Shown here one piece after another: positions 3,299 through 37,654 of a stretch of DNA of 64,000 nucleotides. Source of the DNA: Gemmata palustris (GTDB lineage: Bacteria; Planctomycetota; Planctomycetia; Gemmatales; Gemmataceae); the NCBI RefSeq assembly GCF_017939745.1, contig NZ_JAGKQQ010000001.1:6089299-6153298 (forward strand), given 5' to 3'. Every line of letters begins with the position of its first letter. Position 1 is the first letter of the stretch. The notes beneath the pieces were generated by a model. It worked only from the letters and a program-made list of their open reading frames with translations. It was not told the origin of the DNA and searched no databases. Both the position numbers and the translations under genes were made by a program.

Positions 3299-4240
3299 GT
3301 GGCGGAACCCAATAAGAGCCAGCCCGAGGGGCTGGACAAACAGAAGATGAAGCAGATCCTCGTACCGGCGCTCGCGGTGGCGGCGATCGTGATACTTGTG
3401 GGGTTGGTGGTGTACGTCTCGGAAGCCGCGGCCCCGAAGACAATGTCCGACGGCTCGAACGGCTCGGTCGATGACCCCGACCTGAAGGAACTCAGCACGG
3501 GCGTCAAATGCCGCGATTTAAGGTTCGGAACGGGCGAATCGTGCCCGCCCGGTGCGGAGGTGAAGATCCACTACACCGGGTGGGTTCCCGACGGCACCGT
3601 GTTCGACAGTAGTAAGGACCGCGGGCAACCCGCGACTTTCAAGCTCGAGGACCTGATCGTCGGGTGGCAAGAAGGTATTCCGGGCATGAAACCCGGGGGG
3701 GTTCGCAAACTGGTGATCGCGCCGGACAAGGGCTACGGAAAGCGGGGGAAAGGGAAAATTCCGCCCGACAGCACACTCGTATTCGAGATCGAGCTAATTG
3801 AAGCGCACAACCATAACCACTCGGAGGCGCCGAAAGACGTTACGGTCGGCTCCGGCAAACCGATGTCCGACGGGTCCAACGGGGGCACCGAGGATCCCGG
3901 TCTCAAAGACATTGGCAGCGGGCTAAAAATCCGCGACTTGAAGGAGGGTACCGGCGAACCCGTTGCGGAGGGTGCGACGGTGACGATGCACTACACGGGC
4001 TGGTTGGTGAACGGGCACCAGTTCGACAGCAGTAAAACGCGGGGCGTACCGTTCGACGCAGTTCTCCGCCCGGGTACCGAAAAATCGGTAATTAGGGGCT
4101 GGGAGCGCGGAATCCCGGGGATGAAGCCCGGTGGCGTGCGGAAGCTCGTGATACCAGCGGATTTGGCCTACGGTCCCAAAGGTCGATCGGGTATTCCCGG
4201 GGGCGCCACACTCATTTTTGAAGTGGAACTCGTCAAGTGA
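3299..4240 (+). CDS. FKBP-type peptidyl-prolyl cis-trans isomerase, two tandem FKBP domains, N-terminal membrane anchor
   Basis: Two copies of the FKBP signature (…HYTGW…DGTVFDSS…GWQEGIPGMKPGGVRKLVIAPD…YG…G.IPP.STLVFE.EL). Confidence 0.85.
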   Translation: MAEPNKSQPEGLDKQKMKQILVPALAVAAIVILVGLVVYVSEAAAPKTMSDGSNGSVDDPDLKELSTGVKCRDLRFGTGESCPPGAEVKIHYTGWVPDGTVFDSSKDRGQPATFKLEDLIVGWQEGIPGMKPGGVRKLVIAPDKGYGKRGKGKIPPDSTLVFEIELIEAHNHNHSEAPKDVTVGSGKPMSDGSNGGTEDPGLKDIGSGLKIRDLKEGTGEPVAEGATVTMHYTGWLVNGHQFDSSKTRGVPFDAVLRPGTEKSVIRGWERGIPGMKPGGVRKLVIPADLAYGPKGRSGIPGGATLIFEVELVK

Positions 4241-4278
4241 TTCGTTAATCGTCCGTATTCAGTTGTTGTCAAAAACCG

Positions 4279-4318
4279 GGCGGGGACCGTCGCGGTACCG
4301 CCCGGTGTTAACTGACAG
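4279..4318. terminator. bidirectional intrinsic terminator between convergent FKBP and PfkB genes
   Basis: aaaaaCCGGGCGGggaccgtcgcggtaCCGCCCGGtgtt. GC stem flanked by an A-run and a T-run. Confidence 0.5.
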
Positions 4319-4337
4319 CAAACGCGAACCGCCTCCG

Positions 4338-5423
4338 TTAGCGCTGCACCCGAGCCCCGGCGCCGGAGGCGAACGCTTCGACCTCCGCGAGCGTGCCCAT
4401 CGTGGTGTCGCCGTGGTACGTGGTGAGCAGCGCGCCGTGTGCCCAGCCGAGATTGAGCGCCTGCTGGGTGTCGCGCCCGCTGAGGAGCCCGTAAATGGTG
4501 CCGGCCGCGAACCCGTCTCCGCCGCCGATGCGGTCGATCACGTCGAGCTGCGTCGTCGGGCTGACGTACCGCTTCCCGTCGAGCCACAGCACCGCGGCCC
4601 AGTCGTGCCGGTTGGCCGAGTGCGTTTCGCGGAGCGTGGTCGCCACCAGTTTGATGTTCGGGAACTCCTTCACCGTGTTCTCGATCATGCCGAAGAACAC
4701 GTCCGGGTTCAGCTTCGATTCCTCTTTCTTCGTCACTTCGGGGCCTTTGACGCCCAGTCCCTTCTGCATATCCTCTTCGTTCCCGATGAGGCAATCGACG
4801 TTCGCGACGATGCGCCGGAGCGTTTCCACCGCGCGCGTCTCGCCGCCGACCGGCTTCCACAGCTTCCCGCGATAGTTCAGGTCGAACGACACGATCGCGC
4901 CCTGCGCTTTCGCGGCCCTCATGCCCTCAATGATGAGCTCCGGGTTGTTTTCGGACAGCGCCGCGAAGATGCCGCCGGAGTGGAACCAGCGCACGCCGCC
5001 GGCCATGATCTTGGCCCAATCGAAGTCGCCGACCTTGAGGAGCGAAGCGGCTTCGTTGGCGCGATTGTAGAAAACGACCGGGGCGCGGACGCCCTGCCCG
5101 CGGTCGCTGTAGACGGTGGCGATGTTCGGCCCGCGCACGCCGTCGTGCTCGAAGTGCTTGTAGAACGGCGTGACGCCCATTTCGCGCACGCGGGCCTGCA
5201 CCAGGTCGCCGACCGGGTAGTTGACCATCGCGCTCGCGACGCCGGTGCGCAAACCGAAACAGTCGGAGAGGTTCGCGGCGACGTTGTACTCGCCGCCGGA
5301 AACGTGAACGTCGAACCCGCGGGCCTTGCGGAACGGCGTGACACCGGGGTCGAGCCGGTGGACCAGTGCTCCGAGCGAGAGGAAGTCGAGCGCGCAGGTG
5401 TCGGTGCGGATCGGAAGAGGCAT
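4338..5423 (-). CDS. PfkB-family carbohydrate kinase (2-keto-3-deoxygluconate kinase-like)
   Basis: C-terminal DRIGGGDGFAAG anion-hole/ATP motif and N-terminal GG dipeptide region typical of the ribokinase/PfkB family. Confidence 0.8.
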   Translation of the reverse strand: MPLPIRTDTCALDFLSLGALVHRLDPGVTPFRKARGFDVHVSGGEYNVAANLSDCFGLRTGVASAMVNYPVGDLVQARVREMGVTPFYKHFEHDGVRGPNIATVYSDRGQGVRAPVVFYNRANEAASLLKVGDFDWAKIMAGGVRWFHSGGIFAALSENNPELIIEGMRAAKAQGAIVSFDLNYRGKLWKPVGGETRAVETLRRIVANVDCLIGNEEDMQKGLGVKGPEVTKKEESKLNPDVFFGMIENTVKEFPNIKLVATTLRETHSANRHDWAAVLWLDGKRYVSPTTQLDVIDRIGGGDGFAAGTIYGLLSGRDTQQALNLGWAHGALLTTYHGDTTMGTLAEVEAFASGAGARVQR

Positions 5424-5503
5424 GAAGGAACTCCGGGAAGCGTCTTGTGTGGTCTACGCTATCGCCGAAGAAAGGACGGACAAGACGGTGCAAAATGAGG
5501 AAA

Positions 5504-5761
5504 TCAGTACGTCCAGAAGTGCGTGACCCGAACGGTGCCGCCCGCGGTATCAACAGTGAACCGAATCGCACACGGTGAATCATACGCGATCCGGCGCCCG
5601 GCCCCTGAGCGCGACTCGCCGAGATCGTTTGGGTCCGCAGCGAGCTGGTTATTGAACCGAATTACAGCCCGTTCGATCGCGTCGCGCGTTGACGTGTTCG
5701 CTTGAACGAAGGCATCCGCCAGTGCGTCAAGAGCCGAATCGCGCCAGATCACCGCGAACAT
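5504..5761 (-). CDS. type II toxin, RelE/ParE superfamily-like
   Basis: 85 aa starting at internal Met (MFAVIWRDSALDALAD…RFTVDTAGGTVRVTHFWTY). Small size, 13-nt overlap with the upstream 79-aa ORF, and pattern similar to ParE toxins. Confidence 0.45.
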   Translation of the reverse strand: MFAVIWRDSALDALADAFVQANTSTRDAIERAVIRFNNQLAADPNDLGESRSGAGRRIAYDSPCAIRFTVDTAGGTVRVTHFWTY

Positions 5762-5988
5762 CGCAGATCCCTCAATTTCGCCCCGACCTCCGCAGCGGTG
5801 TACCACGTGCCAGTGGTCACGTCCTCGCACTGGCGTAGTTCTTCTTCGGAGATGTGCGGTTCTGCACCGTGCATAGAAGCCGGGGTAAACGTCCCCAAGA
5901 TCCGACCGTCACTCGCGCGGAACTCTACCGGCGCGCTGGCTCGGGCGAGTTCAGTAACGAGGAGCGCGTCGGCGATCGTGATGGACAT
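5749..5988 (-). CDS. putative antitoxin partner of the ParE-like toxin
   Basis: 79-aa ORF immediately upstream of, and overlapping, the toxin-like ORF. No recognisable HTH seen; assignment by context. Confidence 0.35.
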   Translation of the reverse strand: MSITIADALLVTELARASAPVEFRASDGRILGTFTPASMHGAEPHISEEELRQCEDVTTGTWYTAAEVGAKLRDLRCSR

Positions 5989-6084
5989 GGCTATCTCCTT
6001 GCGAATAGCCGAATTATATCACCGAGCCAGCCTCCGAACAATCGATCCGCGCTCTTCGGCGCCGGGCGCGGAACTGCAGCCCGG

Positions 6085-9250: not shown

Positions 9251-12200
9251 TTACTTGGTACTACCGCCGACGAAGATCCCGGGCGAGGGGGGCATGTTCA
9301 CCGGCACGGCCAGGAAGCTGTCCAGGAGGTCCAGCGTCTGGCCGTCGAAGACCTTGACGTGCGGGGCGCTGCCGCCCGCGCCCGTGAGGATGTCCGCGAG
9401 CCCGTCGCCGTCGCGATCGATCGCCCCGACGCGGACCCCGAACGTTGCACCCGGGTACGCGATGAAGCTCTGCAGCTCCGCACCCGTCAGCGCGTCGAGG
9501 GCCTTCACGTGCGGTGCGTTCGTCGCCCCGGTGATGATCTCGGCGCGCCCGTCGCCGTTCAGGTCCCCGGCCGCGACGTAGATGCCCCCGAGGTACCCGG
9601 CCCCGTATGCGAAGTAGCTCCCGAGGAGTTGCCCGTTGTTCTGCCCCGAGAACGCCTTGACGTGCCCGGCGAACGTGGCCGACCCGGTAATCACGTCGGC
9701 GAGGCCGTCGCCGTTTACGTCGCCCGCGCCCACCGTAACCCCGACCGGGTTCCCGCCGCTCGTCGAGTAGGCGAAGAAGCTCAGGAGCGTGTCCGCGGGG
9801 TTGCGCCCCGAGAACGCCTTGACGTGGTCGTTGGCGATGGCCGTGCCGACGACGATGTCCGCGAACCCGTCGCCGTTCACGTCCCCGGCCGCCACGTTCA
9901 CCCCGCCCGTGTACCCGATGAACGTGAAGAAGCTCGCGAGTTCCGAGTAATCGGACCCGCTGTACACCTTCACGTGCCCGCCGGGCGCCCCCGCCCCCGC
10001 GGACACGATGATATCGCTGATCCCGTCGTTGTTCACGTCCCCGGTCGCCACCTTCACCCCCAACGTGTAACCGTCGAAGGGCGTGAGCACCCGGAGCAGC
10101 GCGCCGGTCCGCGGGTCGAAGACCTGGACCGTGGCGACCGGACCCGCGTCCGTGCCGACCACCAGGCGCGCCTGCCGGTCAACGATCTGGGACGCGGTAC
10201 CGGACCCGGACCGGTAGAACGTGTCGCCCGAGTAGACGGCCGAGATGATGCTCGTGCCCGCACGGATCGTGCTGGTGCTGAGGCTCGCGGCGCCGGTCGC
10301 GTCGAGGGCCACAACTCCCAAGACCTCGCCGGTCGTGGAGTTGATGAAGGTAATCGTGCCGGTCGGGACCGCGAGCCCGGTCTGCCGCGCCACCCGCGCG
10401 ACGAAGCCGACCGTGTCCCCGAAAACGCTCGGCCCGTTCAGTGCCTGCAGGGTCGTCGTCGAGACGACGGTGACCGACTGTATCAAGCGCAGATCGGTCT
10501 GGGTGCGTGCTTCGTAGGTGGACGGGGTCGGCGTGAACGTCGCGGTAACGGTATACGAGCCGGCGTTCGCGAACGTCGTCAAGAACGAGGCCGCCGCCTG
10601 ATTGAGCGTGCCCGTTGCAGCGAGCGCTTGCGTCCCGATCGACACGCCGTTGACGAAGAACTCCACCGTGCCCGCCGGTACAGCGTCACCGGCCGCCGCG
10701 GGTGCGATAGTGACGGTGTATGTCACGGCTTGACCGGGGAGCGACGGGTTGGTATTCGACTGGATCGTCGCGGTCGAAGCGAGGGCGAGCACGCGGACGA
10801 GGACACTGTTCGCGGTGTAGTCGATCTGGTAGGTCCGGGTGCCGATGGTGAAGGTCGCCAGGTCCGCCAGCCCACTGAAAGTACCGGTAACGCCGCCCGT
10901 GGCCGTAAGGATCGTAAACGTGGCGCCCACGTTGGGACTGAAGGTCGGGCTGAACACCAGGGTCGCGCTGTTGTTGAGCGTCGCGATCCCGCTGACCGCG
11001 ACGCTGTCGTAGCCGGACCCGAGCGTCGTGCCGTTCGCCTCCACAACGAAGGTCGAGGAGTAAAAGGTCAGATCCCCGTTGATACTGAGGAGCGCGGGAC
11101 TGAGCCCCGGCGAGAGCGTACCGCCGGAGGTCACCGTGACGCTCCCAACGGTCCCGGTTCCACCGAGCGTGGCGCCGGGGCGCACCTCCACCGGCGCGTT
11201 CCTCAGGTCCGTGTTCACGAACACGGTCCCGCCGACGATGATCGTCGTGCCGGCGTAGCCGAGACTGGCGGGGCCGTCCAGCGTGAGCGTGCCGGTACCG
11301 ACCTTCCCCACCCCGCCGCCCGCGGTACCCGTGATGGTGCCCGAAAAAACCGACGAAGAGTTATCGCCGCCGATTATCAGCGCCCCGGCGCCGAGCACGA
11401 GTGTGCCCGAGCCCGATAGAGAGGCGACCGCGTCCGATTGACCGTTCAAGTCCAGCGTGGTCCCCGGCGCGAGCGCAACGACGGTGCCGTCGGGGAGCGT
11501 GTTGCTCCCGGTCAACTGCAGGGTTCCGCGGGCGACCGTGGTCGTACCACTGTACGTGTTCGCCCCGCTGAGGCGCAGTTCCCCGCCCCCGTCCTTGATG
11601 ATCCCGTCACCGGGGCTCCCGGAGATCACGCCGCTCACCTCGAGGAAACCGTCCTGCGCGGCCGTAACCGTCTTGTTGGGTGTCGGGAGCGTGGCCACCA
11701 CCATCTGGGTCGGAGCCACCGTCGCCGTCTGGCCCTCGTAGAACGTGTCCCCGGTGTACGCGGCGGTGATCGTGTGGGAGCCTTGAGTCAGAGCCGATGT
11801 TGTGAACGACGCCACGCCACCGGTAAGAGGTATTGCGATCGCGCCCGGCATAGCGACCCCGTTATCGAAGAACGTCACCGTCCCGGTCGGCGCGGGGTTA
11901 GCGGCGACCTGGCGCGTGGCGGTGAAGGTGAACGTCACGCTCTGGTTCACCAGGGACGTGTTGGCGCTCGAGCGGAGCTGCACAGTGAGGGGGTTGGTAA
12001 CCGCCTGCTGCGGCCGGAGCTGCACCGTCGTGTCCGCATAGGCAGATCCGGCGCCCGCGGCGTACCTGGCGGTGATGAAGTGCGTGCCGAACGTCAGGTT
12101 CGAGAGACTGAACGAGGCGAAACTGGTGAGCCCACCCGCGGGGGTGGTGAGATTCACCGCCGCGAGCTGCGTCGCCCCGTCGAAGAACGTCACCATCCCA

Positions 12201-15200
12201 CCGGGCACCGGATCACCGGCCTGACGGGTGGCAACGAAATCGAACGTTACAATTTGCCCCGTTGACGACGGGCTGGCGCTCGAGCTGAGCTGGATCTGGA
12301 GCGGGGTGGCCACCACCTGGACCGGCCCGAGGGTCGCGGTCCCGCCCGCGTTGCCCCCGTCCCCGGAGTACACGGCGGTGATGGCGCGTAATCCGGCAGG
12401 CAGCGCGTTAGTGGTAAACGTTGCCACCCCGTTGACCACGTTAACGGGGACGGTGTTGAGCGGGATGCCGGCATCGAAGAAATTCACCTGCCCGGTCGCG
12501 GTCGCGGAGTTGACCTGGAAAGTGAAGGTGATGGCCTGCCCGACCGGGGTCGGGTTGGCGTTGGAACTGAGGAGCAGCACGGGGGCGTTGACCACGATCT
12601 GCCCGCCCAAGAGGACCACCGTTTGGGCCTCGTAGAACGGATCCCCGGAGTACACGGCAGTGATCACGCGGGTGCCCGCGGCCAGGGTCGAGATCAGGTC
12701 CGAGGTCGCCTGGCCGTTCACGAGTGTCTTCGCCACACCGATGATGGTGGCACCATCGAAGAACGTTACTGTCCCGGTCGGCACGGGGCTGCCGAACTGG
12801 TTCGTGGCGGTGAAGTTGAACGTCACACCCTGACCCACGGCGGACGAGTTGGCACTGGACGTGAGCAGAAGTGACGGGGCGTCGACGACGATCTGGCCCC
12901 CAAGGAGGGTGACGCTCGAGGGGGCGTAGTACGCATCACCGGAGTACTGGGCAGTGATGACGTACACCCCGGCACCCAGCCCGGAGTTCAGCGTCGCGAC
13001 CCCGTTGGCGTTCAGGAAAGCGCCACCGATCGGAGTCGTAACCCCGTTTGCCGTGGCAAAGAATGTGACACTCCCGGTTGGGAGCGGGTTGCTCGCCTGC
13101 GACCGGGTGATCGTGAACGTGAACGCCGCGTTCCCGGGGCTGGTCTGGTTCGCGTTCGAGGTGAGGAGTTGCCGCGAGGGGGCCCCGACCACCTCCTGGG
13201 TCGACGGCAGCGCCACGGTCGTGCCCGCGTAGACCGCGTCCCCGGAGTACTCGGCGGTGATCGTGTGGCTCCCGGCCGACAGGTTGCTCGTGGTGAGCGT
13301 GAACGTCGTGACCCCGACGTTGAAAGAGGGAGTGCCGAACCCGAGGGAGGTCGCGCCGTCGAAGAACTCCACCGACCCGCCCGCGGCTGGCCCGCTCCCG
13401 GTGATGATGTTCACGGTGAACGTGACTGCGCTACCGAATTGAGACACGGCCGAACTCGAGAAGAACTCGGTCGCCGCCAGCGACTTCACGCTGAAGGTGC
13501 GCGTGACCCCGCCGAGGGACACGTTACCGGTGATCTTCGCGGTGTCGCCCGCACCAGCAACGAGCACGTCGCTGGCGAGGGTCAGCAACCCGGCCCCAGT
13601 CGTCAACTCGCCGCCGGCGAGGGTCACCGCGCCGAGCGTCTCATTGAACCCGTTCAGGTTGAGTAGCCCGTCCTGCTGGACGCGCACGCGAATCGTGGTC
13701 GCGCTGACCGATTCGGGGATCTGGTTGGACGCTTCCAGGCGCAGCTCGGCCGAGTTATTGGCACCGGTGCCGTCGCCGACGAACACTTGACCGTTCAGCG
13801 CGTTCAGGCCGGGCGTTTTCGCGAGCGTGAGGCGCCCGTCGTCGACGAACGTGGGCTTGACGAACGTGTTATTCGCGGTCCCGCTGAGGCGCAACTCACC
13901 GGCGCCGATCTTGTGGAAATCGGCGTCACCACTCACAACGCCCGAAAACGTGAGCGAGCCGCCGGCGGCCACGTTAATATCGGCCCGGGTCGCGTCAACG
14001 CCGAGGAGAGTGATGAGGCCGGTGATTTGACTGTTGCCCGGGCCGACCACGAGAGCGCCGGTACCGGACACCCCGGTCCCCGAAAGTGTCAAGGCTTCGG
14101 TCATGGTGATCGCATTGGCCACTTGCAGCGTGGCCCCCGCGAACACCCGAGTACCGGCCCCGTTGGTCCCGCCCAGAGACTGGTTGGATTGGATAATGGT
14201 CAGCCCCTGACGCAGGGACGTGGACCCGAGGTACGTGTTGTTCCCAGAGAGGGTCAGGGTTCCGGTCCCGGTCTTTTCCAAGCTCGGAATGGTGCCCCCG
14301 GGGGGCGTCGCGACGTCGCGGATGCTGCCCGAGACAGTCAGCGAACTCCCACCGTCGACGTTGAGAGAGGCCGCAGATCCGAGCGTGGCGGCGCCACTGA
14401 ATGTAATCGCCGACCCGCCGATGATGTGAACCGCGCCACTGGTCTCGAACCCGACACCGTTCAGGACCAGCGGCCGTGCTAATGTGTAATTCCCCTCGAT
14501 TTGAAGGGTACCAACCGCCCCGTCCGTACCCGAAGTCGAGTTAACCGTAACGGTACCACTGGACCCAAGGGCCAGAGCGTTAGCGATCTCCAAGGTGCCG
14601 TTATTGACGTTCGTGTTACCGGTGAAGGGCGTGAAGCCGGTGGGCACCCCGGTCGCACTGTTGTTGCGAGCGATGCGAACATTCCCCTGGTCGGTCTTCG
14701 ACATATCGGCCGCACCACCGAGCGCCCCAGAAAGCAGCAACTCGCTGCCCTGAGTCGCCCCGATGTTTGAAGCGCTCTGCAGGGTAATGGTGCCGAGCCA
14801 CGTGGACGCGCCCACGAAGTCCAAAAGCAGAGCGCCGAGGCGCCGCTGGGCAAGGTCCACGAATATGCCGGGGCCGTTCAGGAAAAGTGTTTCGTTAACG
14901 GCGAGCCCACTGTCGAGCCTCAGAGTTGTGCCGTTGAACACCGTGGTCGAGAAACCGGGCGAGAGCGCATTGTTATCGTAGATCGTGACGCTCCCCCCCC
15001 GAATCAGAGTATTGCCCCCGTAAGTGTTCCCGACCTCCAACTCCAAATCACCGGCGCCCACCTTCGTCAGATTGCCGCTCCCACTGATCCCGGTGGTATC
15101 GACAATGAGCCCCGTCCCAGGGGTTCCCAGCGTAAAGACGTCGACGCCGATGCTCACGTTGCCAATGAGCGCGATCCCCCCGGACCAGGTACCGTGCGGC

Positions 15201-16234
15201 AGTTGCGTGGTCGTAGAACCGCGGAACGTGCGGTACGGGTCATTCATACCGCGGAGGGCCCCCAACCCGCCCACCCCGTCCCCGACGAGGTCGAGCGAGT
15301 CGGAGACGGTGGCCCCGTTCGCAATGCCCATCGTCGCACCGAAGTCCACGACGGTTCCGCGGACCGTGTCGCCGAGTGCGTTGTCGCTCGAGGCGATAAG
15401 GATGCCCTCAGCGACACGCACCCCACCGGTGAACGTGTTGTTCCCGGCCAGCGCGATCGTGCCGGTCCCCCGCTTCAGCAACCCGCCCATCCCCCCGGCC
15501 GGGTCGATGATGTTCGCGTTGATGTACAACACACCGACGCCATCGCTCCGGAACTCCTGGTTGAGGCCGTTCAACTGGACGGTCAGGTTCGAAACGCCGT
15601 TCCCCGGCGTGAACGTCGGCCCGAGCAGCGAGAGCCCGGCGAGCGAACCTACGGTCTGCGGGATGTTGGCAGTCACGCGCCCCAGGATCGTCAGCGTCGT
15701 GCCCGCGGTGAGTGCGTCGATGTGATAATTGTCGTCGTTGATCTGCAGATTGCCGATGATCCAGTTCTTGCGGGTCGCAAAGCTGTGAAACGGGTTATCA
15801 TCGATGATGGAGTTCGCGAGCTTCCCGCCGTCGATCCCTACGGCCGGAGGAGTGGGGGGCGGGTTGTGAGCCCCGTTCGGGAAGATGAACGCGCCGTTGA
15901 CGATCGCCGCAGGGGGCTTGTTGGCGGCCGCGAGCCCGGCCGGGAAGATGACATCGTCCCCGTCCTGGGGAATATTACCGAGCTGCCAGTTGAGGGAATT
16001 GCTCCACAAGGCGGATAAATTCCCACCCGTCGGGGCAGGGATCCCACCACCGGTCCACACCGCGACGGCCATCAGGGCGCGGTCCTCCAGCGCCTCGACC
16101 GTGAGCGCCGGCTGAATCGGGGCGCACGCACCCTGACCGACAAACCGCTTCTTGAGCAATTGGCGAAGCCACGATCGCGACATAGCTGTACCCGCGTGGT
16201 GTTTATGGACTGTATGTTCCGTGTCAAAAACCAA
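9251..16234 (-). CDS. giant (~2,300 aa) secreted cell-surface protein: N-terminal PATR (autotransporter-associated beta-strand) repeats, Ig-like array, C-terminal FG-GAP/VCBS repeats
   Basis: N-terminus …LTVEALEDRALMAV… export motif. Repeated GTGTLTLSGNNTY / LRLSGANTYSGTTTV units (PATR). Many ~100-aa VTFxV…TAxYSGD Ig-like repeats. C-terminal DVNGDGxADIxxG FG-GAP repeats. True start may be the Met at 16183. Confidence 0.8.
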   Translation of the reverse strand: MVFDTEHTVHKHHAGTAMSRSWLRQLLKKRFVGQGACAPIQPALTVEALEDRALMAVAVWTGGGIPAPTGGNLSALWSNSLNWQLGNIPQDGDDVIFPAGLAAANKPPAAIVNGAFIFPNGAHNPPPTPPAVGIDGGKLANSIIDDNPFHSFATRKNWIIGNLQINDDNYHIDALTAGTTLTILGRVTANIPQTVGSLAGLSLLGPTFTPGNGVSNLTVQLNGLNQEFRSDGVGVLYINANIIDPAGGMGGLLKRGTGTIALAGNNTFTGGVRVAEGILIASSDNALGDTVRGTVVDFGATMGIANGATVSDSLDLVGDGVGGLGALRGMNDPYRTFRGSTTTQLPHGTWSGGIALIGNVSIGVDVFTLGTPGTGLIVDTTGISGSGNLTKVGAGDLELEVGNTYGGNTLIRGGSVTIYDNNALSPGFSTTVFNGTTLRLDSGLAVNETLFLNGPGIFVDLAQRRLGALLLDFVGASTWLGTITLQSASNIGATQGSELLLSGALGGAADMSKTDQGNVRIARNNSATGVPTGFTPFTGNTNVNNGTLEIANALALGSSGTVTVNSTSGTDGAVGTLQIEGNYTLARPLVLNGVGFETSGAVHIIGGSAITFSGAATLGSAASLNVDGGSSLTVSGSIRDVATPPGGTIPSLEKTGTGTLTLSGNNTYLGSTSLRQGLTIIQSNQSLGGTNGAGTRVFAGATLQVANAITMTEALTLSGTGVSGTGALVVGPGNSQITGLITLLGVDATRADINVAAGGSLTFSGVVSGDADFHKIGAGELRLSGTANNTFVKPTFVDDGRLTLAKTPGLNALNGQVFVGDGTGANNSAELRLEASNQIPESVSATTIRVRVQQDGLLNLNGFNETLGAVTLAGGELTTGAGLLTLASDVLVAGAGDTAKITGNVSLGGVTRTFSVKSLAATEFFSSSAVSQFGSAVTFTVNIITGSGPAAGGSVEFFDGATSLGFGTPSFNVGVTTFTLTTSNLSAGSHTITAEYSGDAVYAGTTVALPSTQEVVGAPSRQLLTSNANQTSPGNAAFTFTITRSQASNPLPTGSVTFFATANGVTTPIGGAFLNANGVATLNSGLGAGVYVITAQYSGDAYYAPSSVTLLGGQIVVDAPSLLLTSSANSSAVGQGVTFNFTATNQFGSPVPTGTVTFFDGATIIGVAKTLVNGQATSDLISTLAAGTRVITAVYSGDPFYEAQTVVLLGGQIVVNAPVLLLSSNANPTPVGQAITFTFQVNSATATGQVNFFDAGIPLNTVPVNVVNGVATFTTNALPAGLRAITAVYSGDGGNAGGTATLGPVQVVATPLQIQLSSSASPSSTGQIVTFDFVATRQAGDPVPGGMVTFFDGATQLAAVNLTTPAGGLTSFASFSLSNLTFGTHFITARYAAGAGSAYADTTVQLRPQQAVTNPLTVQLRSSANTSLVNQSVTFTFTATRQVAANPAPTGTVTFFDNGVAMPGAIAIPLTGGVASFTTSALTQGSHTITAAYTGDTFYEGQTATVAPTQMVVATLPTPNKTVTAAQDGFLEVSGVISGSPGDGIIKDGGGELRLSGANTYSGTTTVARGTLQLTGSNTLPDGTVVALAPGTTLDLNGQSDAVASLSGSGTLVLGAGALIIGGDNSSSVFSGTITGTAGGGVGKVGTGTLTLDGPASLGYAGTTIIVGGTVFVNTDLRNAPVEVRPGATLGGTGTVGSVTVTSGGTLSPGLSPALLSINGDLTFYSSTFVVEANGTTLGSGYDSVAVSGIATLNNSATLVFSPTFSPNVGATFTILTATGGVTGTFSGLADLATFTIGTRTYQIDYTANSVLVRVLALASTATIQSNTNPSLPGQAVTYTVTIAPAAAGDAVPAGTVEFFVNGVSIGTQALAATGTLNQAAASFLTTFANAGSYTVTATFTPTPSTYEARTQTDLRLIQSVTVVSTTTLQALNGPSVFGDTVGFVARVARQTGLAVPTGTITFINSTTGEVLGVVALDATGAASLSTSTIRAGTSIISAVYSGDTFYRSGSGTASQIVDRQARLVVGTDAGPVATVQVFDPRTGALLRVLTPFDGYTLGVKVATGDVNNDGISDIIVSAGAGAPGGHVKVYSGSDYSELASFFTFIGYTGGVNVAAGDVNGDGFADIVVGTAIANDHVKAFSGRNPADTLLSFFAYSTSGGNPVGVTVGAGDVNGDGLADVITGSATFAGHVKAFSGQNNGQLLGSYFAYGAGYLGGIYVAAGDLNGDGRAEIITGATNAPHVKALDALTGAELQSFIAYPGATFGVRVGAIDRDGDGLADILTGAGGSAPHVKVFDGQTLDLLDSFLAVPVNMPPSPGIFVGGSTK

Positions 16235-16794: not shown

Positions 16795-16819
16795 GACTGT
16801 TCGATCTTTGCCGAACACC

Positions 16820-18247
16820 ATGCCGGGCCGCAACCGAATGTCCGTTAAGAGCCTGCCGCTAACCTCAACGCCCGGTGCCGGCACGTCCCGCGCGCCCGAG
16901 TCCAAGGGGAATTACGCCTTCATTAGCTTGGGCTGCCCGAAGAACACCGTGGACAGCGAGCGGATGCTCGGCAAGCTCGCCCAGGACGGCTACGCTCTCC
17001 AGCCCGGGGCCGACGGCGCGGACGTGGTGATTGTGAACACGTGCGGGTTCATTGAACCGGCCCGGCAGGAATCGCTCGCGGTCATCCGCGAAATGCTCCA
17101 ACTCAAAAAGGCCGGCAAGGTCGGCGCGGTGGTCGTGGCCGGGTGCATGGCCGAGCGCCAGCGCGAGGTGCTCCTCGAACAGGTGCCCGAGGTCGATCAG
17201 ATCGTCGGGGTGTTCGGGCGCGAGGAAATCGCCGACGTCGTGGACCGGGCCGTGTCCCAGCGCGACGAGCAGAAGTCACTGTTCCGCCCGGCCCCGGTTC
17301 GCGCGCTCGAAGACACCGCCCGTCTGCGCATCACCCCGCGCCACTTCGCGTACCTCAAGATCAGCGAGGGGTGCGACCGGGTCTGTACCTACTGCGCGAT
17401 CCCGAAGATGCGCGGGAAGCACGTTACGAAGCCGATCGAAGAGATCGTCCGCGAGGCGCACGAACTCGTGGCCGACGGCGTGCGCGAACTCATCATCGTC
17501 GCACAAGATACTACCTACTACGGAATGGACCTATACGGGCGCACGCGGCTCGCCGAGTTGCTGCGCGAACTCGACAAGGTCGACGGCATCGAGTGGATTC
17601 GCACGCTCTACGCCTACCCCGAGCACATTTCGGACGAACTGATCGAGACGTTCGCCGGCGCGACCAAGATCATTCCGTACCTGGACATGCCGCTCCAGCA
17701 CATTAGCGACCGCGTCCTGAAGCGGATGATCCGCCGCGTGGACCGCGCCGCGACCGAGAACTTGCTCCTGCGCCTGCGCGAGAAATGGCCGGACCTCGCG
17801 ATCCGCACCACGTTCATTACGGGTTTCCCCGGCGAAACGCAGTCGGAGTTCGAGGAACTCAAGCAGTTCGTTGCGGACTTCAAGTTCGAGCGCGCCGGCG
17901 TGTTCCCCTACTCGCTCGAACCCGGCACGCCGGCGGAGAAGCTCGACGGGCACATGCCCGAAGACGTGAAACAGGCGCGCGTGGCCGCGATCATGGAAGT
18001 GCAGCAGCGGGTCGCGTTCGGGTGGGCCGAAGCACAGGTCGGCAAAGAGCACCCCGTCATTATTGACGGCCCGGACCCGGAGTTCGCGAGCCACTTCCGC
18101 GGGCGGACCTTCGCGGACGCGCCGGAGATCGATTGCGAGGTCCGCGTGAAGGGCAAAAACCTGCGCTCCGGCGATTTCGTGCGGGCGAAGATCACCGCCG
18201 CCGACGGCTACGATCTCACCGCGAAGGCACTGGGCAAGTCGTGGTGA
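16820..18247 (+). CDS. rimO: ribosomal protein S12 methylthiotransferase RimO (radical SAM MTTase + TRAM)
   Basis: FISLGCPKNTVDSE N-terminal MTTase motif. Radical-SAM CDRVCTYCAIP motif. C-terminal TRAM-like region. ATG at 16820 preferred over the TTG at 16808. Confidence 0.85.
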   Translation: MPGRNRMSVKSLPLTSTPGAGTSRAPESKGNYAFISLGCPKNTVDSERMLGKLAQDGYALQPGADGADVVIVNTCGFIEPARQESLAVIREMLQLKKAGKVGAVVVAGCMAERQREVLLEQVPEVDQIVGVFGREEIADVVDRAVSQRDEQKSLFRPAPVRALEDTARLRITPRHFAYLKISEGCDRVCTYCAIPKMRGKHVTKPIEEIVREAHELVADGVRELIIVAQDTTYYGMDLYGRTRLAELLRELDKVDGIEWIRTLYAYPEHISDELIETFAGATKIIPYLDMPLQHISDRVLKRMIRRVDRAATENLLLRLREKWPDLAIRTTFITGFPGETQSEFEELKQFVADFKFERAGVFPYSLEPGTPAEKLDGHMPEDVKQARVAAIMEVQQRVAFGWAEAQVGKEHPVIIDGPDPEFASHFRGRTFADAPEIDCEVRVKGKNLRSGDFVRAKITAADGYDLTAKALGKSW

Positions 18248-18322
18248 GGTGAGTGGCGTGGGCAAAGGGCGCCGGTACCGCTAGAATGCCGGTCTTCGCA
18301 TACACATACCGGAGAACCGACA

Positions 18323-18433
18323 ATGGGCATTCAACACGCACCGAAGAGCCAGCGGAACGCTTCCAAGAAGCGCCGCAAGGCCCGCAAGCACAAGCTCCGC
18401 AGCACGAAGAAGTACAAGGGCGGGGTGCGCTAA
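18323..18433 (+). CDS. 36-aa highly basic small protein (bS22-like?), not in the ORF track
   Basis: ATG at 18323 preceded by GGAG 8 nt upstream. Translation MGIQHAPKSQRNASKKRRKARKHKLRSTKKYKGGVR, stop TAA 18431-18433. The Lys/Arg pattern resembles small ribosomal proteins such as bS22. Confidence 0.5.
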   Translation: MGIQHAPKSQRNASKKRRKARKHKLRSTKKYKGGVR

Positions 18434-18545
18434 AGCACCGCAACAGCATTGCAACGCGCGGCCGGGAGGTTCCCGGCCGTTGCTCATTTCACAGCCCGGC
18501 ACAAGGCACTTTGGTTCGCTCCACGATTGGGACGAGAAAAGCCGC

Positions 18546-18776
18546 GGATCAACGCAGATAACGCAGATAACGCAGATCAGACAAAGCAAAAGCAAAAACA
18601 GATTGGCCACAAAAAAGCAGAGGTCAGAAGGCAGAGAGCAGAGGACGAAAAGCAAGGTACCAGATCGGATGCGTATGGTTTCTCTAGCCCCATTCGAGGC
18701 AACAATACCTCTGCCCTCTGCCCCCTGCCCTCTTTTTTGTGGCTATTCCGTCTTCTGTCTTGATCTGCGTTGATCC
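18546..18776. repeat. long imperfect palindrome with purine-rich left arm, pyrimidine-rich right arm, and a 3x CGCAGATAA tandem repeat
   Basis: ggatcaacgcagat (18546-59) pairs with atctgcgttgatcc (18763-76). gccacaaaaaag (18606-17) pairs with cttttttgtggc (18732-43). AG-rich versus CT-rich arms. Local GC is well below the genome average. Confidence 0.6.
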
Positions 18777-18799
18777 GTGGCTCTTCATTCATCCTTGTT

Positions 18800-20110
18800 T
18801 CAATCCGCTTCGCCGATCCGGGCGTCCTTTAGTGAGAAGAGGTACCCCTCGGGGTCCGCGCGGTTGAGGACGAGTGTACCCGTTACCTTGATGAGCCCCT
18901 TGCGGGCCTCGGCGCTTTTGCCCGCTTTCAGTTCCACATTCAGTAGCCCCGTCGGGTCGGGCACTTCGCAGAACCAGCACCCCACCGGGTATTCAAGCAA
19001 CAGGAACTCCCGTGCCGCGAGTTCGTCCTTCACCGGCTGCATGAACCCGGTGAGCGCGACCGTTTTGCCGTCGAGTTGTTCCAGGTACTTCACGAACGCC
19101 GGACGGCCCTTCGCGTTGATGCTGGTCGCGGCGAGAAGGGGCCACGGCAGCGCGTTGGTCTTGTCGCTCTCGATCGCGGGCAAGAGCGCTTCGTCGAACG
19201 CCTTAATCAGCGGGCGCGACGACTTGGTCTTCAGTGTCCCGCGGTGCTGTTCGTGGCCCGGCTTCTTCGCGAGTTCATCGGCCGCGGCGCGGTACACGAG
19301 CCGGCGCTTGCGGAGGTCGGGTGAGCCGAGTGCGAATTCCGTAACACAGCCGTCGAGAGCGGCGGCCGCAGCGCGCACGTCGCCGAGGGCGTTGCACAGC
19401 TCGCCGAATTGCCACAAGAGTCTTGCATCCGCCGGCAGCCACAAACCGAGTTGTTGGACCGTAACCAGCGCATCGGCGGGGAGCTTCTTCAACTCTGCGT
19501 CTGCGAGCGCGCCGGCTTCGGGCGAACCGGACGCGCCGACGAACTTCACGCCGAACAGGTCATCAATCGTCGCCGGCTGGTTCGCGGCCTTACCTTCCTT
19601 GAGTCGGAGGCGCACGAGTTTGAGGTGCGCCTGCTCGAACGGCTTGAGTTTCGCGGGAGCGAGCCGAACGGCTTCTTCGAGTTGCACGCCCGCGCGTTCG
19701 AGGTCGCCGGTCAGTTGGAACGCGGTGCCGAGGTTCGCCGCGATGCGAAAGTGTTCGGAGAACTTGCGAACGGCCGGCGCGAGCACGTTGAGCGCACTGT
19801 CGGTTTTGCCCAGGCGAATATAAACCGCCCCGAGATCCGCGATTTCATCAGCCGTCAGTGCCCGCGTTTTTGCGAGTTTCTCCAGTCGTGTGGCCGCAGC
19901 GAGGTAGTCGTCACGGAGCGGCGAGGGCAACCCGTCGGGGCGCTCGCGCCCGGCGGCCCTCAGCGCGCGCTGGTCGGTCAGGAACCCGGACGGACGGCTC
20001 GGCAGTTCCGCGAACTGCTCACCGGAGTAGTGCAACCCGGCCCGTGCGAGTGCCGGTAGTGAAAGTACGGCGAGGGCACCCACGAGTACGCGCCCGCGGA
20101 ATGAGTTCAT
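18800..20110 (-). CDS. secreted protein, N-terminal TPR-like helical region and conserved C-terminal Cys-containing domain (unknown function)
   Basis: Signal peptide MNSFRGRVLVGALAVLSLPALARA at the internal Met (20110). C-terminal …EYPVGCWFCEVP…GYLFSLKDARI domain. Confidence 0.5.
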   Translation of the reverse strand: MNSFRGRVLVGALAVLSLPALARAGLHYSGEQFAELPSRPSGFLTDQRALRAAGRERPDGLPSPLRDDYLAAATRLEKLAKTRALTADEIADLGAVYIRLGKTDSALNVLAPAVRKFSEHFRIAANLGTAFQLTGDLERAGVQLEEAVRLAPAKLKPFEQAHLKLVRLRLKEGKAANQPATIDDLFGVKFVGASGSPEAGALADAELKKLPADALVTVQQLGLWLPADARLLWQFGELCNALGDVRAAAAALDGCVTEFALGSPDLRKRRLVYRAAADELAKKPGHEQHRGTLKTKSSRPLIKAFDEALLPAIESDKTNALPWPLLAATSINAKGRPAFVKYLEQLDGKTVALTGFMQPVKDELAAREFLLLEYPVGCWFCEVPDPTGLLNVELKAGKSAEARKGLIKVTGTLVLNRADPEGYLFSLKDARIGEAD

Positions 20111-37241: not shown

Positions 37242-37328
37242 GGAGAGGTGGCAGAGTGGTCGATTGTGCAGCACTGGAAATGCTGTGTACGGGAAACCGT
37301 ACCGAGGGTTCGAATCCCTCCCTCTCCG
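37242..37328 (+). tRNA. tRNA-Ser (anticodon GGA)
   Basis: Acceptor GGAGAGG/CCTCTCC. Anticodon stem CAGCA/TGCTG with loop CTGGAAA. Long variable arm GTACGGGAAACCGTAC. T-loop GAGGG-TTCGAAT-CCCTC. Discriminator G. Confidence 0.9.
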
Positions 37329-37654
37329 CTTGACGGTTCACATCACGCGCCCCGATGTCATTCCCGCGAACCCGTTTCGCCGGGTTCATAGTCCCACTTC
37401 ACAGAATCATAATTCGTCCGTGACACGTTCCGCACAGAACACGGTCTCCGGGCACGAAATCCCTTGCGATCGCCAGAACCGGACCTTACGTTAAACCCTG
37501 TTCCAACGATCCCGTCACCCGGTGGCGAGTACCGCACCGTTCGCACGTTCCCAACACAGCACGAGGAGAAGGTACGACACCGGCCCGTCCGAGTTCTATT
37601 CCCGCTCGCGGCTCCGTGCCCCGTAGAGACCGATAGAGGAAGCCCCTAATCGCT

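What the first reader, a model, noticed from the sequence alone, without database searches (positions are those of the whole stretch)
18323..18433. Unlisted 36-aa highly basic ORF with strong RBS downstream of rimO (possible small ribosomal protein, bS22-like)
ATG at 18323 is preceded by GGAG with 8-nt spacing and encodes MGIQHAPKSQRNASKKRRKARKHKLRSTKKYKGGVR (14 Lys/Arg in 36 aa). It falls below the 60-aa ORF cut-off. Its composition and the KKRRK…KHKL…T pattern recall tiny ribosomal proteins such as actinobacterial bS22.
Basis: partly seen in the sequence, partly recalled or inferred. Interest (0 to 1): 0.5.

Follow-up and report, generated by a model that had tools for sequence, protein, structure and literature searches.

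The report
Conserved tiny basic protein gene, Gemmata
The 36-codon reading frame is a real, strongly conserved gene with its own promoter in Gemmata-type planctomycetes; it encodes a very basic helical peptide that looks like the tiny proteins buried in ribosomal RNA, but it matches no known ribosomal protein family and its function is untested.

Summary
The ORF at 18323-18433 (+) exists exactly as described, except that it has 15 Lys/Arg, not 14. It is a genuine gene. An intact ATG-started 33-37-codon version occurs in all 46 related loci fetched, and more than 120 protein clusters belong to the family. Every named organism is a Gemmataceae. Third codon positions vary at 29 of 30 codons, against 14 and 13 at positions 1 and 2, and dN/dS is about 0.2-0.3. 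Eight loci encode the identical peptide through synonymous changes only, some in quite different gene neighbourhoods. A -10-like box, a Shine-Dalgarno site and a downstream GC hairpin travel with the ORF, so it is a single-gene transcription unit. GenBank already lists it as "hypothetical protein". No Pfam, NCBIfam or PDB sequence hit was found, including the bS22 and bL37 models. Similarity to bS22, bL37, eL41 and THX does not exceed composition-matched shuffles, but the two accepted bS22 sequence types fail the same test against each other. AlphaFold2 predicts one long helix. Best reading (about 0.5): an rRNA-embedded ribosomal micro-protein that works like bS22/eL41 but belongs to a new sequence family. 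It needs ribosome cryo-EM or mass spectrometry.

The parts
18259..18287 (+). Promoter-like site: TGGGCA (18259-18264), 17-nt spacer, TAGAAT (18282-18287), inside the 75-nt rimO-ORF spacer. The implied 5' UTR is about 29 nt.
   Evidence: This is the only sigma-70-like site found in 18100-18900, against 0.1 expected in shuffles. CCGCTAGAATGCC is invariant in the 7-sequence alignment even where the flanks are unrelated. A TAnnnT box lies 28-60 nt before the ATG in 44 of 45 distinct loci.
18311..18314 (+). Shine-Dalgarno GGAG, 8 nt upstream of the ATG.
   Evidence: Read directly from the sequence. An SD-like motif lies 5-10 nt upstream in 43 of 45 distinct loci.
18323..18433 (+). Coding sequence for a 36-aa peptide: 4.2 kDa, 42% Lys+Arg, no Asp or Glu, predicted single alpha-helix over residues 8-30.
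   Evidence: Translation. Identical product called as a gene in at least 39 collection blocks. Intact ORF in 46 of 46 loci. dN/dS about 0.2-0.3, and variable columns by codon position are 14/13/29. Only synonymous differences separate it from 8 loci with the same peptide. AF2 pLDDT is 82.5.
18456..18483 (+). GC-rich hairpin (GGCCGGGA-GGT-TCCCGGCC core) 23 nt after the stop, followed by a weak T-rich tail. It is a probable intrinsic terminator.
   Evidence: RNA fold gives -26.9 kcal/mol for 18434-18500; the z-score is only -1.6. The stem is kept in L001-L004 with a G-C to A-T swap of the outer pair. Most other loci have a strong hairpin, often with a T run, within 70 nt of the stop. The simple terminator scan did not flag it because of the weak T tail.
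16808..18247 (+). Context only: rimO, the methylthiotransferase that modifies ribosomal protein S12. It is the upstream neighbour on the same strand.
   Evidence: TIGR01125 at 510.6 bits. rimO is the upstream neighbour in 14 of 47 loci, all in the Gemmata/Frigoriglobus clade, and not elsewhere.

Best explanation
The ORF is a genuine gene transcribed on its own, with its own promoter, short 5' UTR, Shine-Dalgarno site, 36 codons and a terminator hairpin. It encodes a 4.2-kDa, acid-free, 42% Lys/Arg peptide that folds as one long alpha-helix preceded by a conserved non-basic N-terminal cap (MGIQH). The family is 33-37 aa with consensus MGIQHxxKxxR[NT]xxK[KR]Rx[KR]xRKHK[LN]RS[TL]KKxK. As far as these searches can detect, it is confined to Gemmataceae/Gemmatales planctomycetes. 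The most likely function is a ribosome-bound micro-protein whose helix is buried among rRNA helices and neutralises phosphate charge, as bS22, eL41 and bL37 do. It may occupy the h44/h45/h27 inter-subunit pocket. Shown here: the gene is real, its protein sequence is under purifying selection, its expression signals are conserved, and it has the right physico-chemical class and a predicted helix. Inferred only: ribosome binding and the site of binding. It is not a detectable sequence member of any named ribosomal protein family.
For: The gene is real:
- The identical peptide is encoded in different gene neighbourhoods (downstream of ndk in L005, another context in L006), where flanking DNA is unalignable but the ORF differs only by synonymous changes. 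These include a TCC->AGC serine switch and stop-codon swaps.
- The ORF is intact and ATG-started in 46 of 46 loci.
- Mean pN/pS is 0.32 and median dN/dS is 0.21. Third positions vary at 29 of 30 codons, against 14 and 13 at positions 1 and 2.
- 179 protein clusters match the family profile.

It is expressed as its own unit:
- The -10 box, SD site and downstream hairpin are conserved.
- It sits in more than 20 different neighbourhoods.

It belongs to the ribosomal-peptide class:
- It is 36 aa with 15 K/R, 0 D/E and GRAVY -1.84, comparable to bS22, bL37 and eL41.
- AF2 predicts a single helix over residues 8-30, with pLDDT 82.5.
- Non-basic residues are strictly conserved (G2, Q4, H5 and S27 nearly invariant; N12, H23 and T28 well conserved), which argues for a specific structured binding site and against generic charge.
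- There is precedent. Both the F. johnsoniae and the Borrelia bS22 were unannotated or 'hypothetical' tiny ORFs until cryo-EM density revealed them (PMC7797042; PMC10618245).
- NCBIfam already holds a planctomycete-type bL37 (NF047429), so such micro-proteins do exist in this phylum.
- Weak contextual hints: the neighbour is rimO in one clade and an ABC-F ribosome-binding ATPase in another.
Against: - There is no direct evidence of ribosome association.
- No profile, PDB-sequence or fold hit was found.
- Similarity to every known tiny ribosomal protein is within the range of shuffles, and hhalign probability is 1-2%.
- The K+R fraction (42%) is lower than in bS22 and eL41 (55-68%).
- The detectable distribution is one family or order, which is narrower than for known lineage-specific ribosomal proteins. 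The exhaustive phmmer search found only 7 clusters at 50% identity.
- The two translation-related neighbours are about what chance would give among roughly 50 neighbour slots.
- Codon usage is only mildly shifted toward major codons.
Confidence: 0.5

Rival explanations
1. It is a true but highly diverged homologue of bS22, either the actinobacterial/mitochondrial DUF1713 type or the Bacteroidetes/Borrelia type, and sits in the same 30S pocket by descent.
For: The size is the same (33 aa is typical for the family and for M. smegmatis bS22), both begin with MG, and both have a KKRRK...KH.KL.R.T-like string. The accepted bS22 types are themselves not detectably similar to each other (SW p = 0.29; hhalign 0.9%), so lack of signal does not exclude common function or descent.
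Against: No hit to NF047430 or PF08213 for any of 32 members at E <= 10, while the positive control scores 62.6 bits. The family HMM scores real bS22 sequences below the mean of their shuffles (z = -0.8 to -1.3). SW p = 0.68-0.92. hhalign gives 0.9% and 1.9%. The conserved N-terminal MGIQHxxKxxRN segment has no counterpart in either bS22 type, and the spacing from KH to T differs.
Confidence: 0.15
2. It is a nucleic-acid-binding peptide that is not part of the ribosome. It could be a protamine-like or nucleoid-associated protein contributing to the unusually condensed Gemmata nucleoid, or a general RNA chaperone.
For: The charge is extreme with no acidic residues. The distribution is restricted to Gemmataceae, a group known (from my own background knowledge, not tested here) for a condensed nucleoid. 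There is no fixed association with translation genes.
Against: Protamine-like and generic polycationic binders usually evolve fast and vary in length. Here non-basic positions are nearly invariant and length is fixed at 33-37 aa. This is an inference, not a test.
Confidence: 0.2
3. It is a regulatory leader peptide (attenuation uORF) for a downstream gene such as the ABC-F ATPase.
For: In L023, L026, L027 and L031 the ORF lies 30-36 nt upstream of an ABC-F gene on the same strand, with a hairpin plus T run between them. That layout is typical of antibiotic-sensing leader ORFs.
Against: In the window the next gene is convergent, on the minus strand. More than 40 loci have no ABC-F downstream. 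The whole 33-aa sequence is conserved, not just a stalling motif.
Confidence: 0.03
4. It is not a protein-coding gene: a chance ORF lying over a conserved non-coding element or small RNA.
For: It is short, there are many chance ORFs in this GC-rich DNA, and the antisense frame is also open in 41 of 42 variants.
Against: The codon-position pattern is 14/13/29. Only synonymous changes occur among identical-peptide loci, including a two-base Ser codon switch. Start, length and stop are conserved in 46 of 46 loci. An SD site sits at a fixed distance. There is no Rfam hit at gathering score.
Confidence: 0.02

Closest known systems
bS22, actinobacterial type (M. smegmatis MSMEG_0945; NCBIfam NF047430; Pfam PF08213/DUF1713; related to mitochondrial mS38/Cox24)
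   Same: It is a stand-alone gene encoding about 33 aa, with no acidic residues and a helical fold. It starts with MG and contains a KKRRK run followed by KH..L..T. It was long missed or left unnamed by annotation.
   Different: There is no profile hit, and similarity is no greater than shuffles. The K/R fraction is 42% against 55%. The window peptide has a conserved 14-residue N-terminal segment (MGIQHxxKxxRNxx) that bS22 lacks, and it lacks the C-terminal RVQRRKLGK. Ribosome binding is unproven here.
bS22, Bacteroidetes/Borrelia type (F. johnsoniae Fjoh_1533; B. burgdorferi bb0822)
   Same: It is a tiny basic peptide previously annotated as hypothetical or not annotated at all, highly conserved within its lineage, with an HK[VIL]..T[HK]K-like core. 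It was recognised only through cryo-EM density (PMC7797042, PMC10618245).
   Different: There is no significant similarity. It has no MP.G[KR]KRK start and no C-terminal RxNRHKKK helix. NCBIfam has no model for this type either.
bL37 (M. smegmatis, NF047428; planctomycete type, NF047429)
   Same: It is a tiny basic stand-alone gene sharing an RKH tripeptide. A planctomycete version of bL37 is already curated, showing that this phylum carries such micro-proteins.
   Different: None of 32 family members hits either bL37 model at E <= 10. The KANHGKRP motif is absent from the window peptide, and no NHG[KR]RP string occurs in any frame of the 400 kb held.
eL41/eS32 (eukaryotic and archaeal 25-aa helix in the same pocket as bS22)
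   Same: The predicted fold is a single uninterrupted helix of about 23 residues with positive charge on all faces.
   Different: There is no sequence relationship above shuffles. eL41 is 68% K/R and has no N-terminal cap.

Membership tests
bS22 actinobacterial/mS38 type (NF047430, PF08213) | Scores above the curated cutoff of the family HMM (NF047430: 34 bits) | tested here: not met
   None of 32 family members hit at E <= 10 in NCBIfam or Pfam. The control, M. smegmatis bS22, scores 62.6 bits.
bS22 actinobacterial/mS38 type (NF047430, PF08213) | Sequence similarity beyond shared composition | tested here: not met
   The family HMM against bS22 gives z = -1.3 relative to 1000 shuffles. SW p = 0.76-0.92. 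hhalign gives 0.9%. The caveat is that the test also fails between the two accepted bS22 types.
bS22 (any type) | About 30-33 aa, very basic, alpha-helical | tested here: met
   The family is 33-37 aa. The window peptide has 42% K+R and no D/E. AF2 predicts a helix over residues 8-30.
bS22 (any type) | Bound in the 30S pocket formed by 16S h2/h27/h44/h45, contacting 23S H68/H70 | not testable with these tools
   This needs a Gemmata ribosome structure. None was found in the literature library.
bS22 Bacteroidetes/Borrelia type (Fjoh_1533, bb0822) | Sequence similarity to MP[SC]G[KR]KRK..K[VI][AS]THK[RK][RK]K.R..NRHKKK | tested here: not met
   HMM z = -0.8 to -0.9. SW p = 0.68-0.86. hhalign gives 1.9%. 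The positive control, Fjo against Bbu, gives p = 0.000.
bL37 (NF047428 mycobacterial, NF047429 planctomycete) | Scores above the HMM cutoff (30 and 40 bits); KANHGKRP-type core | tested here: not met
   No hit at E <= 10. The control, M. smegmatis bL37, scores 51.8 and 17.4 bits. The motif is absent.
eL41, bTHX, bL34, bL36 | Pfam/NCBIfam hit, or similarity above shuffles | tested here: not met
   No Pfam or NCBIfam hits. HMM z-scores range from -0.6 to +1.0.
Unnamed Gemmataceae 'MGIQH' micro-protein family (GenBank hypothetical proteins VT84_00250, GobsT_75710, FTUN_3818) | MGIQH start; K8, R11, K15, R26 and K29 invariant; RKHK[LN]RS[TL]KK core; 33-37 aa | tested here: met
   The window peptide is identical to AMV22808.1 and UniRef A0A6P2DL40 and is the first row of alignments A2 and A4.

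The most novel reading that the evidence does not exclude
Gemmataceae ribosomes carry a previously unrecognised ribosomal protein that belongs to no named family. It would either be a third, independently evolved sequence solution for filling the bS22/eL41 pocket at the decoding-centre side of the subunit interface, or the occupant of a new rRNA site. Its conserved MGIQH N-terminus could reach a functional centre.
Probability: 0.4. Interest if true: 0.6.

Novelty: new member of a known kind. Interest (0 to 1): 0.45.

Why it matters
Tiny, highly basic ribosomal proteins (bS22, bL37, bL38, THX) have repeatedly been missed by annotation and found only when a lineage's ribosome was solved. bS22 sits beside the decoding centre and changes aminoglycoside sensitivity in mycobacteria (PMC10081302). 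No planctomycete ribosome structure was found in the literature library. This gene gives a concrete, sequence-defined candidate to look for in Gemmata ribosome maps and mass spectra. If confirmed, it would add a new family to the bacterial ribosomal protein list and show that such rRNA-pocket peptides arise or diverge beyond recognition repeatedly. If it is not ribosomal, it is still a strongly constrained, lineage-specific nucleic-acid-binding peptide in a group with unusual cell biology. At the least, the family deserves a name and an HMM so that it stops being called 'hypothetical protein' or being dropped by length filters.

Tried and rejected
- **Profile libraries.** Pfam and NCBIfam scans of the peptide and of 32 family members found nothing. 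The only match was P53_C at E = 0.024 for 5 members, which is basic-region noise.
- **Solved structures.** phmmer against PDB sequences gave 0 hits at E <= 10. Foldseek of the AF2 model against PDB gave 0 hits, as expected for a single helix.
- **Exhaustive sequence search.** phmmer against 1.84 billion cluster representatives returned only 7 clusters, all the same family, so no bridge to other families was found.
- **Comparison with known tiny ribosomal proteins.** The family HMM, Smith-Waterman and hhalign against bS22 (both types), bL37, eL41, THX, bL34 and bL36 all fall within the shuffle range. The control shows these tests cannot link the two accepted bS22 types either, so the negative result bears on family membership only.
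- **Gene neighbourhood.** rimO and ABC-F neighbours each occur in one clade. Given more than 20 different contexts, I judged them not significant. No tRNA genes lie nearby.
- **Promoter motif elsewhere.** The motif CCGCTAGAATGCC has only this one copy in the window.
- **Viral contigs.** No relative was found.
- **Other basic ORFs.** A search for a second bS22- or bL37-like ORF in the 400 kb held found none. This covers only about 4% of a Gemmata genome and is not informative about absence.
- **Literature.** Nothing was found on planctomycete ribosome structures, on bS22 or bL37 in Planctomycetes, or on the locus tags.
- **Tool limits.** The first homologous-protein run failed because the query is under 40 aa. 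It was redone with an alignment headed by a 49-aa gene call. P0011, a 390-aa glycosyltransferase in the peptide's 90% cluster, does not contain the motif and is a clustering artefact.

Full report
**Observation**

The window's + strand carries ATG at 18323 and TAA at 18431-18433. The translation is MGIQHAPKSQRNASKKRRKARKHKLRSTKKYKGGVR. GGAG lies at 18311-18314, 8 nt before the ATG. The upstream same-strand gene 16808-18247 is rimO (TIGR01125, 510.6 bits; UPF0004, Radical_SAM and TRAM_2 domains). The peptide has 9 Lys and 6 Arg, so 15 basic residues and not 14. It has no Asp or Glu and weighs 4.2 kDa. A 36-codon ORF alone is uninformative in this roughly 64% GC DNA, where there are 103 ORFs of at least 25 aa in 9 kb. 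The question is therefore one of conservation.

**It is a real gene**

An exact-sequence look-up found the identical 36-aa product called as a gene in at least 39 blocks of public assemblies.
- Four loci (L001-L004: Gemmata sp. SH-PL17, Gemmata sp. IIL30/G. massiliana, and others) share the window's synteny: a giant PATR/FG-GAP protein, rimO, the small ORF, and a convergent TPR/DUF3299 gene.
- L005 (downstream of ndk) and L006 are in quite different neighbourhoods.

In the DNA alignment the flanks of L005 and L006 are unalignable, yet the ORF is preserved. Every nucleotide difference between the window ORF and eight loci encoding the same peptide is synonymous. These differences include a TCC->AGC serine switch and TAA->TGA/TAG stop changes.

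A pattern scan of one genome per GTDB species returned 40 loci. With the earlier six, all 46 carry an intact ATG-started ORF of 33-37 codons and none is frameshifted. Over 42 distinct coding sequences:
- mean pN/pS is 0.32 and median dN/dS is 0.21;
- variable columns number 14, 13 and 29 at codon positions 1, 2 and 3.

A profile search found 179 protein clusters. All that carry a name are 'hypothetical protein', from Gemmata, Frigoriglobus, Fimbriiglobus or 'Gemmataceae bacterium'. The window itself is 97% identical to a 9.2-Mb ENA assembly (L003) and about 83% identical to Gemmata sp. SH-PL17, so it comes from a Gemmata species.

**It is its own transcription unit**

- **Promoter.** A sigma-70-like site (TGGGCA, 17-nt spacer, TAGAAT; 18259-18287) is squeezed into the 75-nt rimO-ORF spacer. 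CCGCTAGAATGCC is invariant across the seven-sequence alignment, including the non-syntenic loci. Across 45 distinct loci, 44 have a TAnnnT box 28-60 nt before the ATG, mostly TAGAAT, TACAAT or TATAAT at -39 to -51. The one exception is truncated.
- **Ribosome-binding site.** 43 of the 45 loci have an SD-like motif 5-10 nt upstream.
- **Terminator.** Most loci have a strong GC hairpin within 70 nt of the stop, often followed by a T run. In the window the hairpin is at 18456-18483. The fold energy is -26.9 kcal/mol for the 67-nt stretch, with a modest z-score and a weak T tail.
- **Neighbourhoods.** rimO is upstream in 14 of 47 loci, all in one clade. An ABC-F ATPase lies 30-36 nt downstream in four loci of another clade (NF000355, 413 bits against a cutoff of 380). 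More than 20 other contexts occur.

Both rimO and ABC-F proteins act on the ribosome. With about 50 neighbour slots, however, two translation-related partners are roughly what chance predicts, so I give this little weight. No tRNA genes are nearby, and no copy occurs in viral contigs.

**What the peptide looks like**

The family consensus is MGIQHxxKxxR[NT]xxK[KR]Rx[KR]xRKHK[LN]RS[TL]KKxK. K8, R11, K15, R26 and K29 are invariant, and M1, G2, Q4, H5, R17, R21, K22, K24, S27 and K30 are at least 90% conserved in 73 sequences. AlphaFold2 with that alignment gives pLDDT 82.5 (91-94 over the first 20 residues), a short N-terminal turn and one helix spanning residues 8-30. Charge is distributed around the helix and there is no hydrophobic face of the kind seen in membrane-active peptides (GRAVY -1.84). 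Codon usage is typical for the genome, with a mild shift to major codons (CGC 0.60 against 0.48; GGC 0.77 against 0.52; no AGA or AGG).

**Is it bS22?**

I recovered the reference sequences:
- M. smegmatis bS22, [33 protein letters not shown] (PDB chains);
- F. johnsoniae bS22, MPSGKKRKRHKVATHKRKKRARANRHKKKK;
- B. burgdorferi bS22, MPCGRKRKLKKISTHKKRKKRRKNRHKKKNK (PMC10618245 supplement).

The NCBIfam controls work on such short basic sequences. M. smegmatis bS22 hits NF047430 at 62.6 bits, and M. smegmatis bL37 hits NF047428 at 51.8 bits. M. smegmatis bL37 also hits, weakly, a planctomycete-type bL37 model, NF047429. None of 32 members of the window's family hits any Pfam or NCBIfam ribosomal model at E <= 10, and phmmer against PDB sequences finds nothing.

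An HMM built from 126 unique family members scores real bS22 (both types), bL37, eL41, THX, bL34 and bL36 no better than 1000 composition-matched shuffles of each (z from -1.3 to +1.0). Smith-Waterman gives p = 0.57-0.98. hhalign gives 0.9% and 1.9%. The 'KKRRK...KHKL...T' resemblance is therefore what any two K/R-rich peptides show.

The same tests also fail between the actinobacterial and Bacteroidetes bS22 types (SW p = 0.29; hhalign 0.9%), although cryo-EM places both in the same 30S pocket (PMC7797042). Failing the sequence tests therefore rules out filing this peptide under NF047430, PF08213, the Fjoh_1533 type or bL37. It does not rule out that it works the same way.

**Most likely mechanism**

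Highly basic, acid-free, helical peptides of 24-46 aa that are strongly conserved in bacteria are, in known cases, overwhelmingly ribosomal: bS22, bL37, THX, bL34, bL36. That statement is established background, not something tested here. Two of them (F. johnsoniae and Borrelia bS22) were 'hypothetical' or unannotated until density maps revealed them. The near-invariance of non-basic residues and the fixed length argue for a defined structured binding site and against generic polyanion binding.

My estimates:

| Reading | Probability |
|---|---|
| rRNA-embedded ribosomal micro-protein (about half of this for the bS22/eL41 pocket specifically) | 0.5 |
| True but diverged bS22 homologue | 0.15 |
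| Non-ribosomal nucleic-acid binder (nucleoid-associated or RNA chaperone) | 0.2 |
| Leader peptide | 0.03 |
| Non-coding | 0.02 |

The leader-peptide reading is excluded in the window by the convergent downstream gene. The non-coding reading is contradicted by the codon-position evidence.

**Novelty and verdict**

The ORF is not new to databases, since GenBank lists it as a hypothetical protein in several Gemmata genomes. The family is, however, unnamed and has no Pfam or NCBIfam model. It appears in none of the literature searched, and no planctomycete ribosome structure was found. I rate it a new member of a known kind, the lineage-restricted tiny basic peptide genes of the bS22/bL37/eL41 sort. 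Its interest is moderate and there is a clear experimental test. The detectable distribution is narrow (Gemmataceae/Gemmatales). This counts somewhat against a core ribosomal role, or else reflects how quickly 33-aa sequences drift beyond detection.

Noticed in passing
window 18482-18790: A roughly 280-bp imperfect palindrome lies just downstream of the small gene's terminator. Its arms are 18536-18559/18763-18786 (92% complementary) and 18582-18617/18732-18767 (72%). It contains three tandem ACGCAGAT[A/C] 9-mers at about 18552-18578. It produces spurious miRNA-precursor Rfam matches. It is an insertion relative to Gemmata sp. SH-PL17 (blastn gap; the intergenic distance is 465 nt against 192 nt) and is shared with L003. 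It looks like a MITE-type element, with only one copy in the window.
   Followed up: partly
L023, L026, L027, L031 (about 4100-6050 in each): In one Gemmataceae clade the small gene lies 30-36 nt upstream of an ABC-F (EttA/Uup-like, ribosome-binding) ATPase on the same strand, with a hairpin plus T run between them. This may be coincidence or a read-through or attenuation arrangement.
   Followed up: partly
NCBIfam library (not in the window): NCBIfam holds NF047429 'ribo_Plancto_bL37' (32 positions), so a planctomycete-type bL37 micro-protein is already curated. The window's family does not hit it. No NCBIfam model hit the F. johnsoniae or Borrelia bS22 sequences.
   Followed up: partly
window 18329-18331 (codon 3) and the same codon in L001-L046: Ile3 is encoded by ATT in 73% of family members, against 14% ATT among Ile codons of neighbouring long ORFs. 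This is nucleotide-level constraint at the 5' end, possibly to keep the initiation region unstructured.
   Followed up: no
L017, L027, L035, L044, L045: MAGs labelled Singulisphaera, Isosphaera or 'uncultured Alcaligenaceae' carry the gene. Either the labels or bins are wrong, or the family extends beyond Gemmataceae. Their taxonomy was not checked.
   Followed up: no
window 9251-16234 (-): A giant 2327-aa ORF lies divergent from rimO. Its counterparts in related loci carry PATR, Big_3_5 and FG-GAP domains.
   Followed up: no
protein collection, cluster of the 36-aa peptide: P0011, a 390-aa 'dolichol-phosphate mannosyltransferase', is listed as a member of the peptide's 90%-identity cluster but does not contain the peptide sequence. 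It is a clustering artefact.
   Followed up: yes
window 37242-37329 (+): tRNA-Ser(GGA) is the only tRNA or Rfam-level RNA gene in the window. Its upstream region shows no copy of the small gene's promoter motif.
   Followed up: partly
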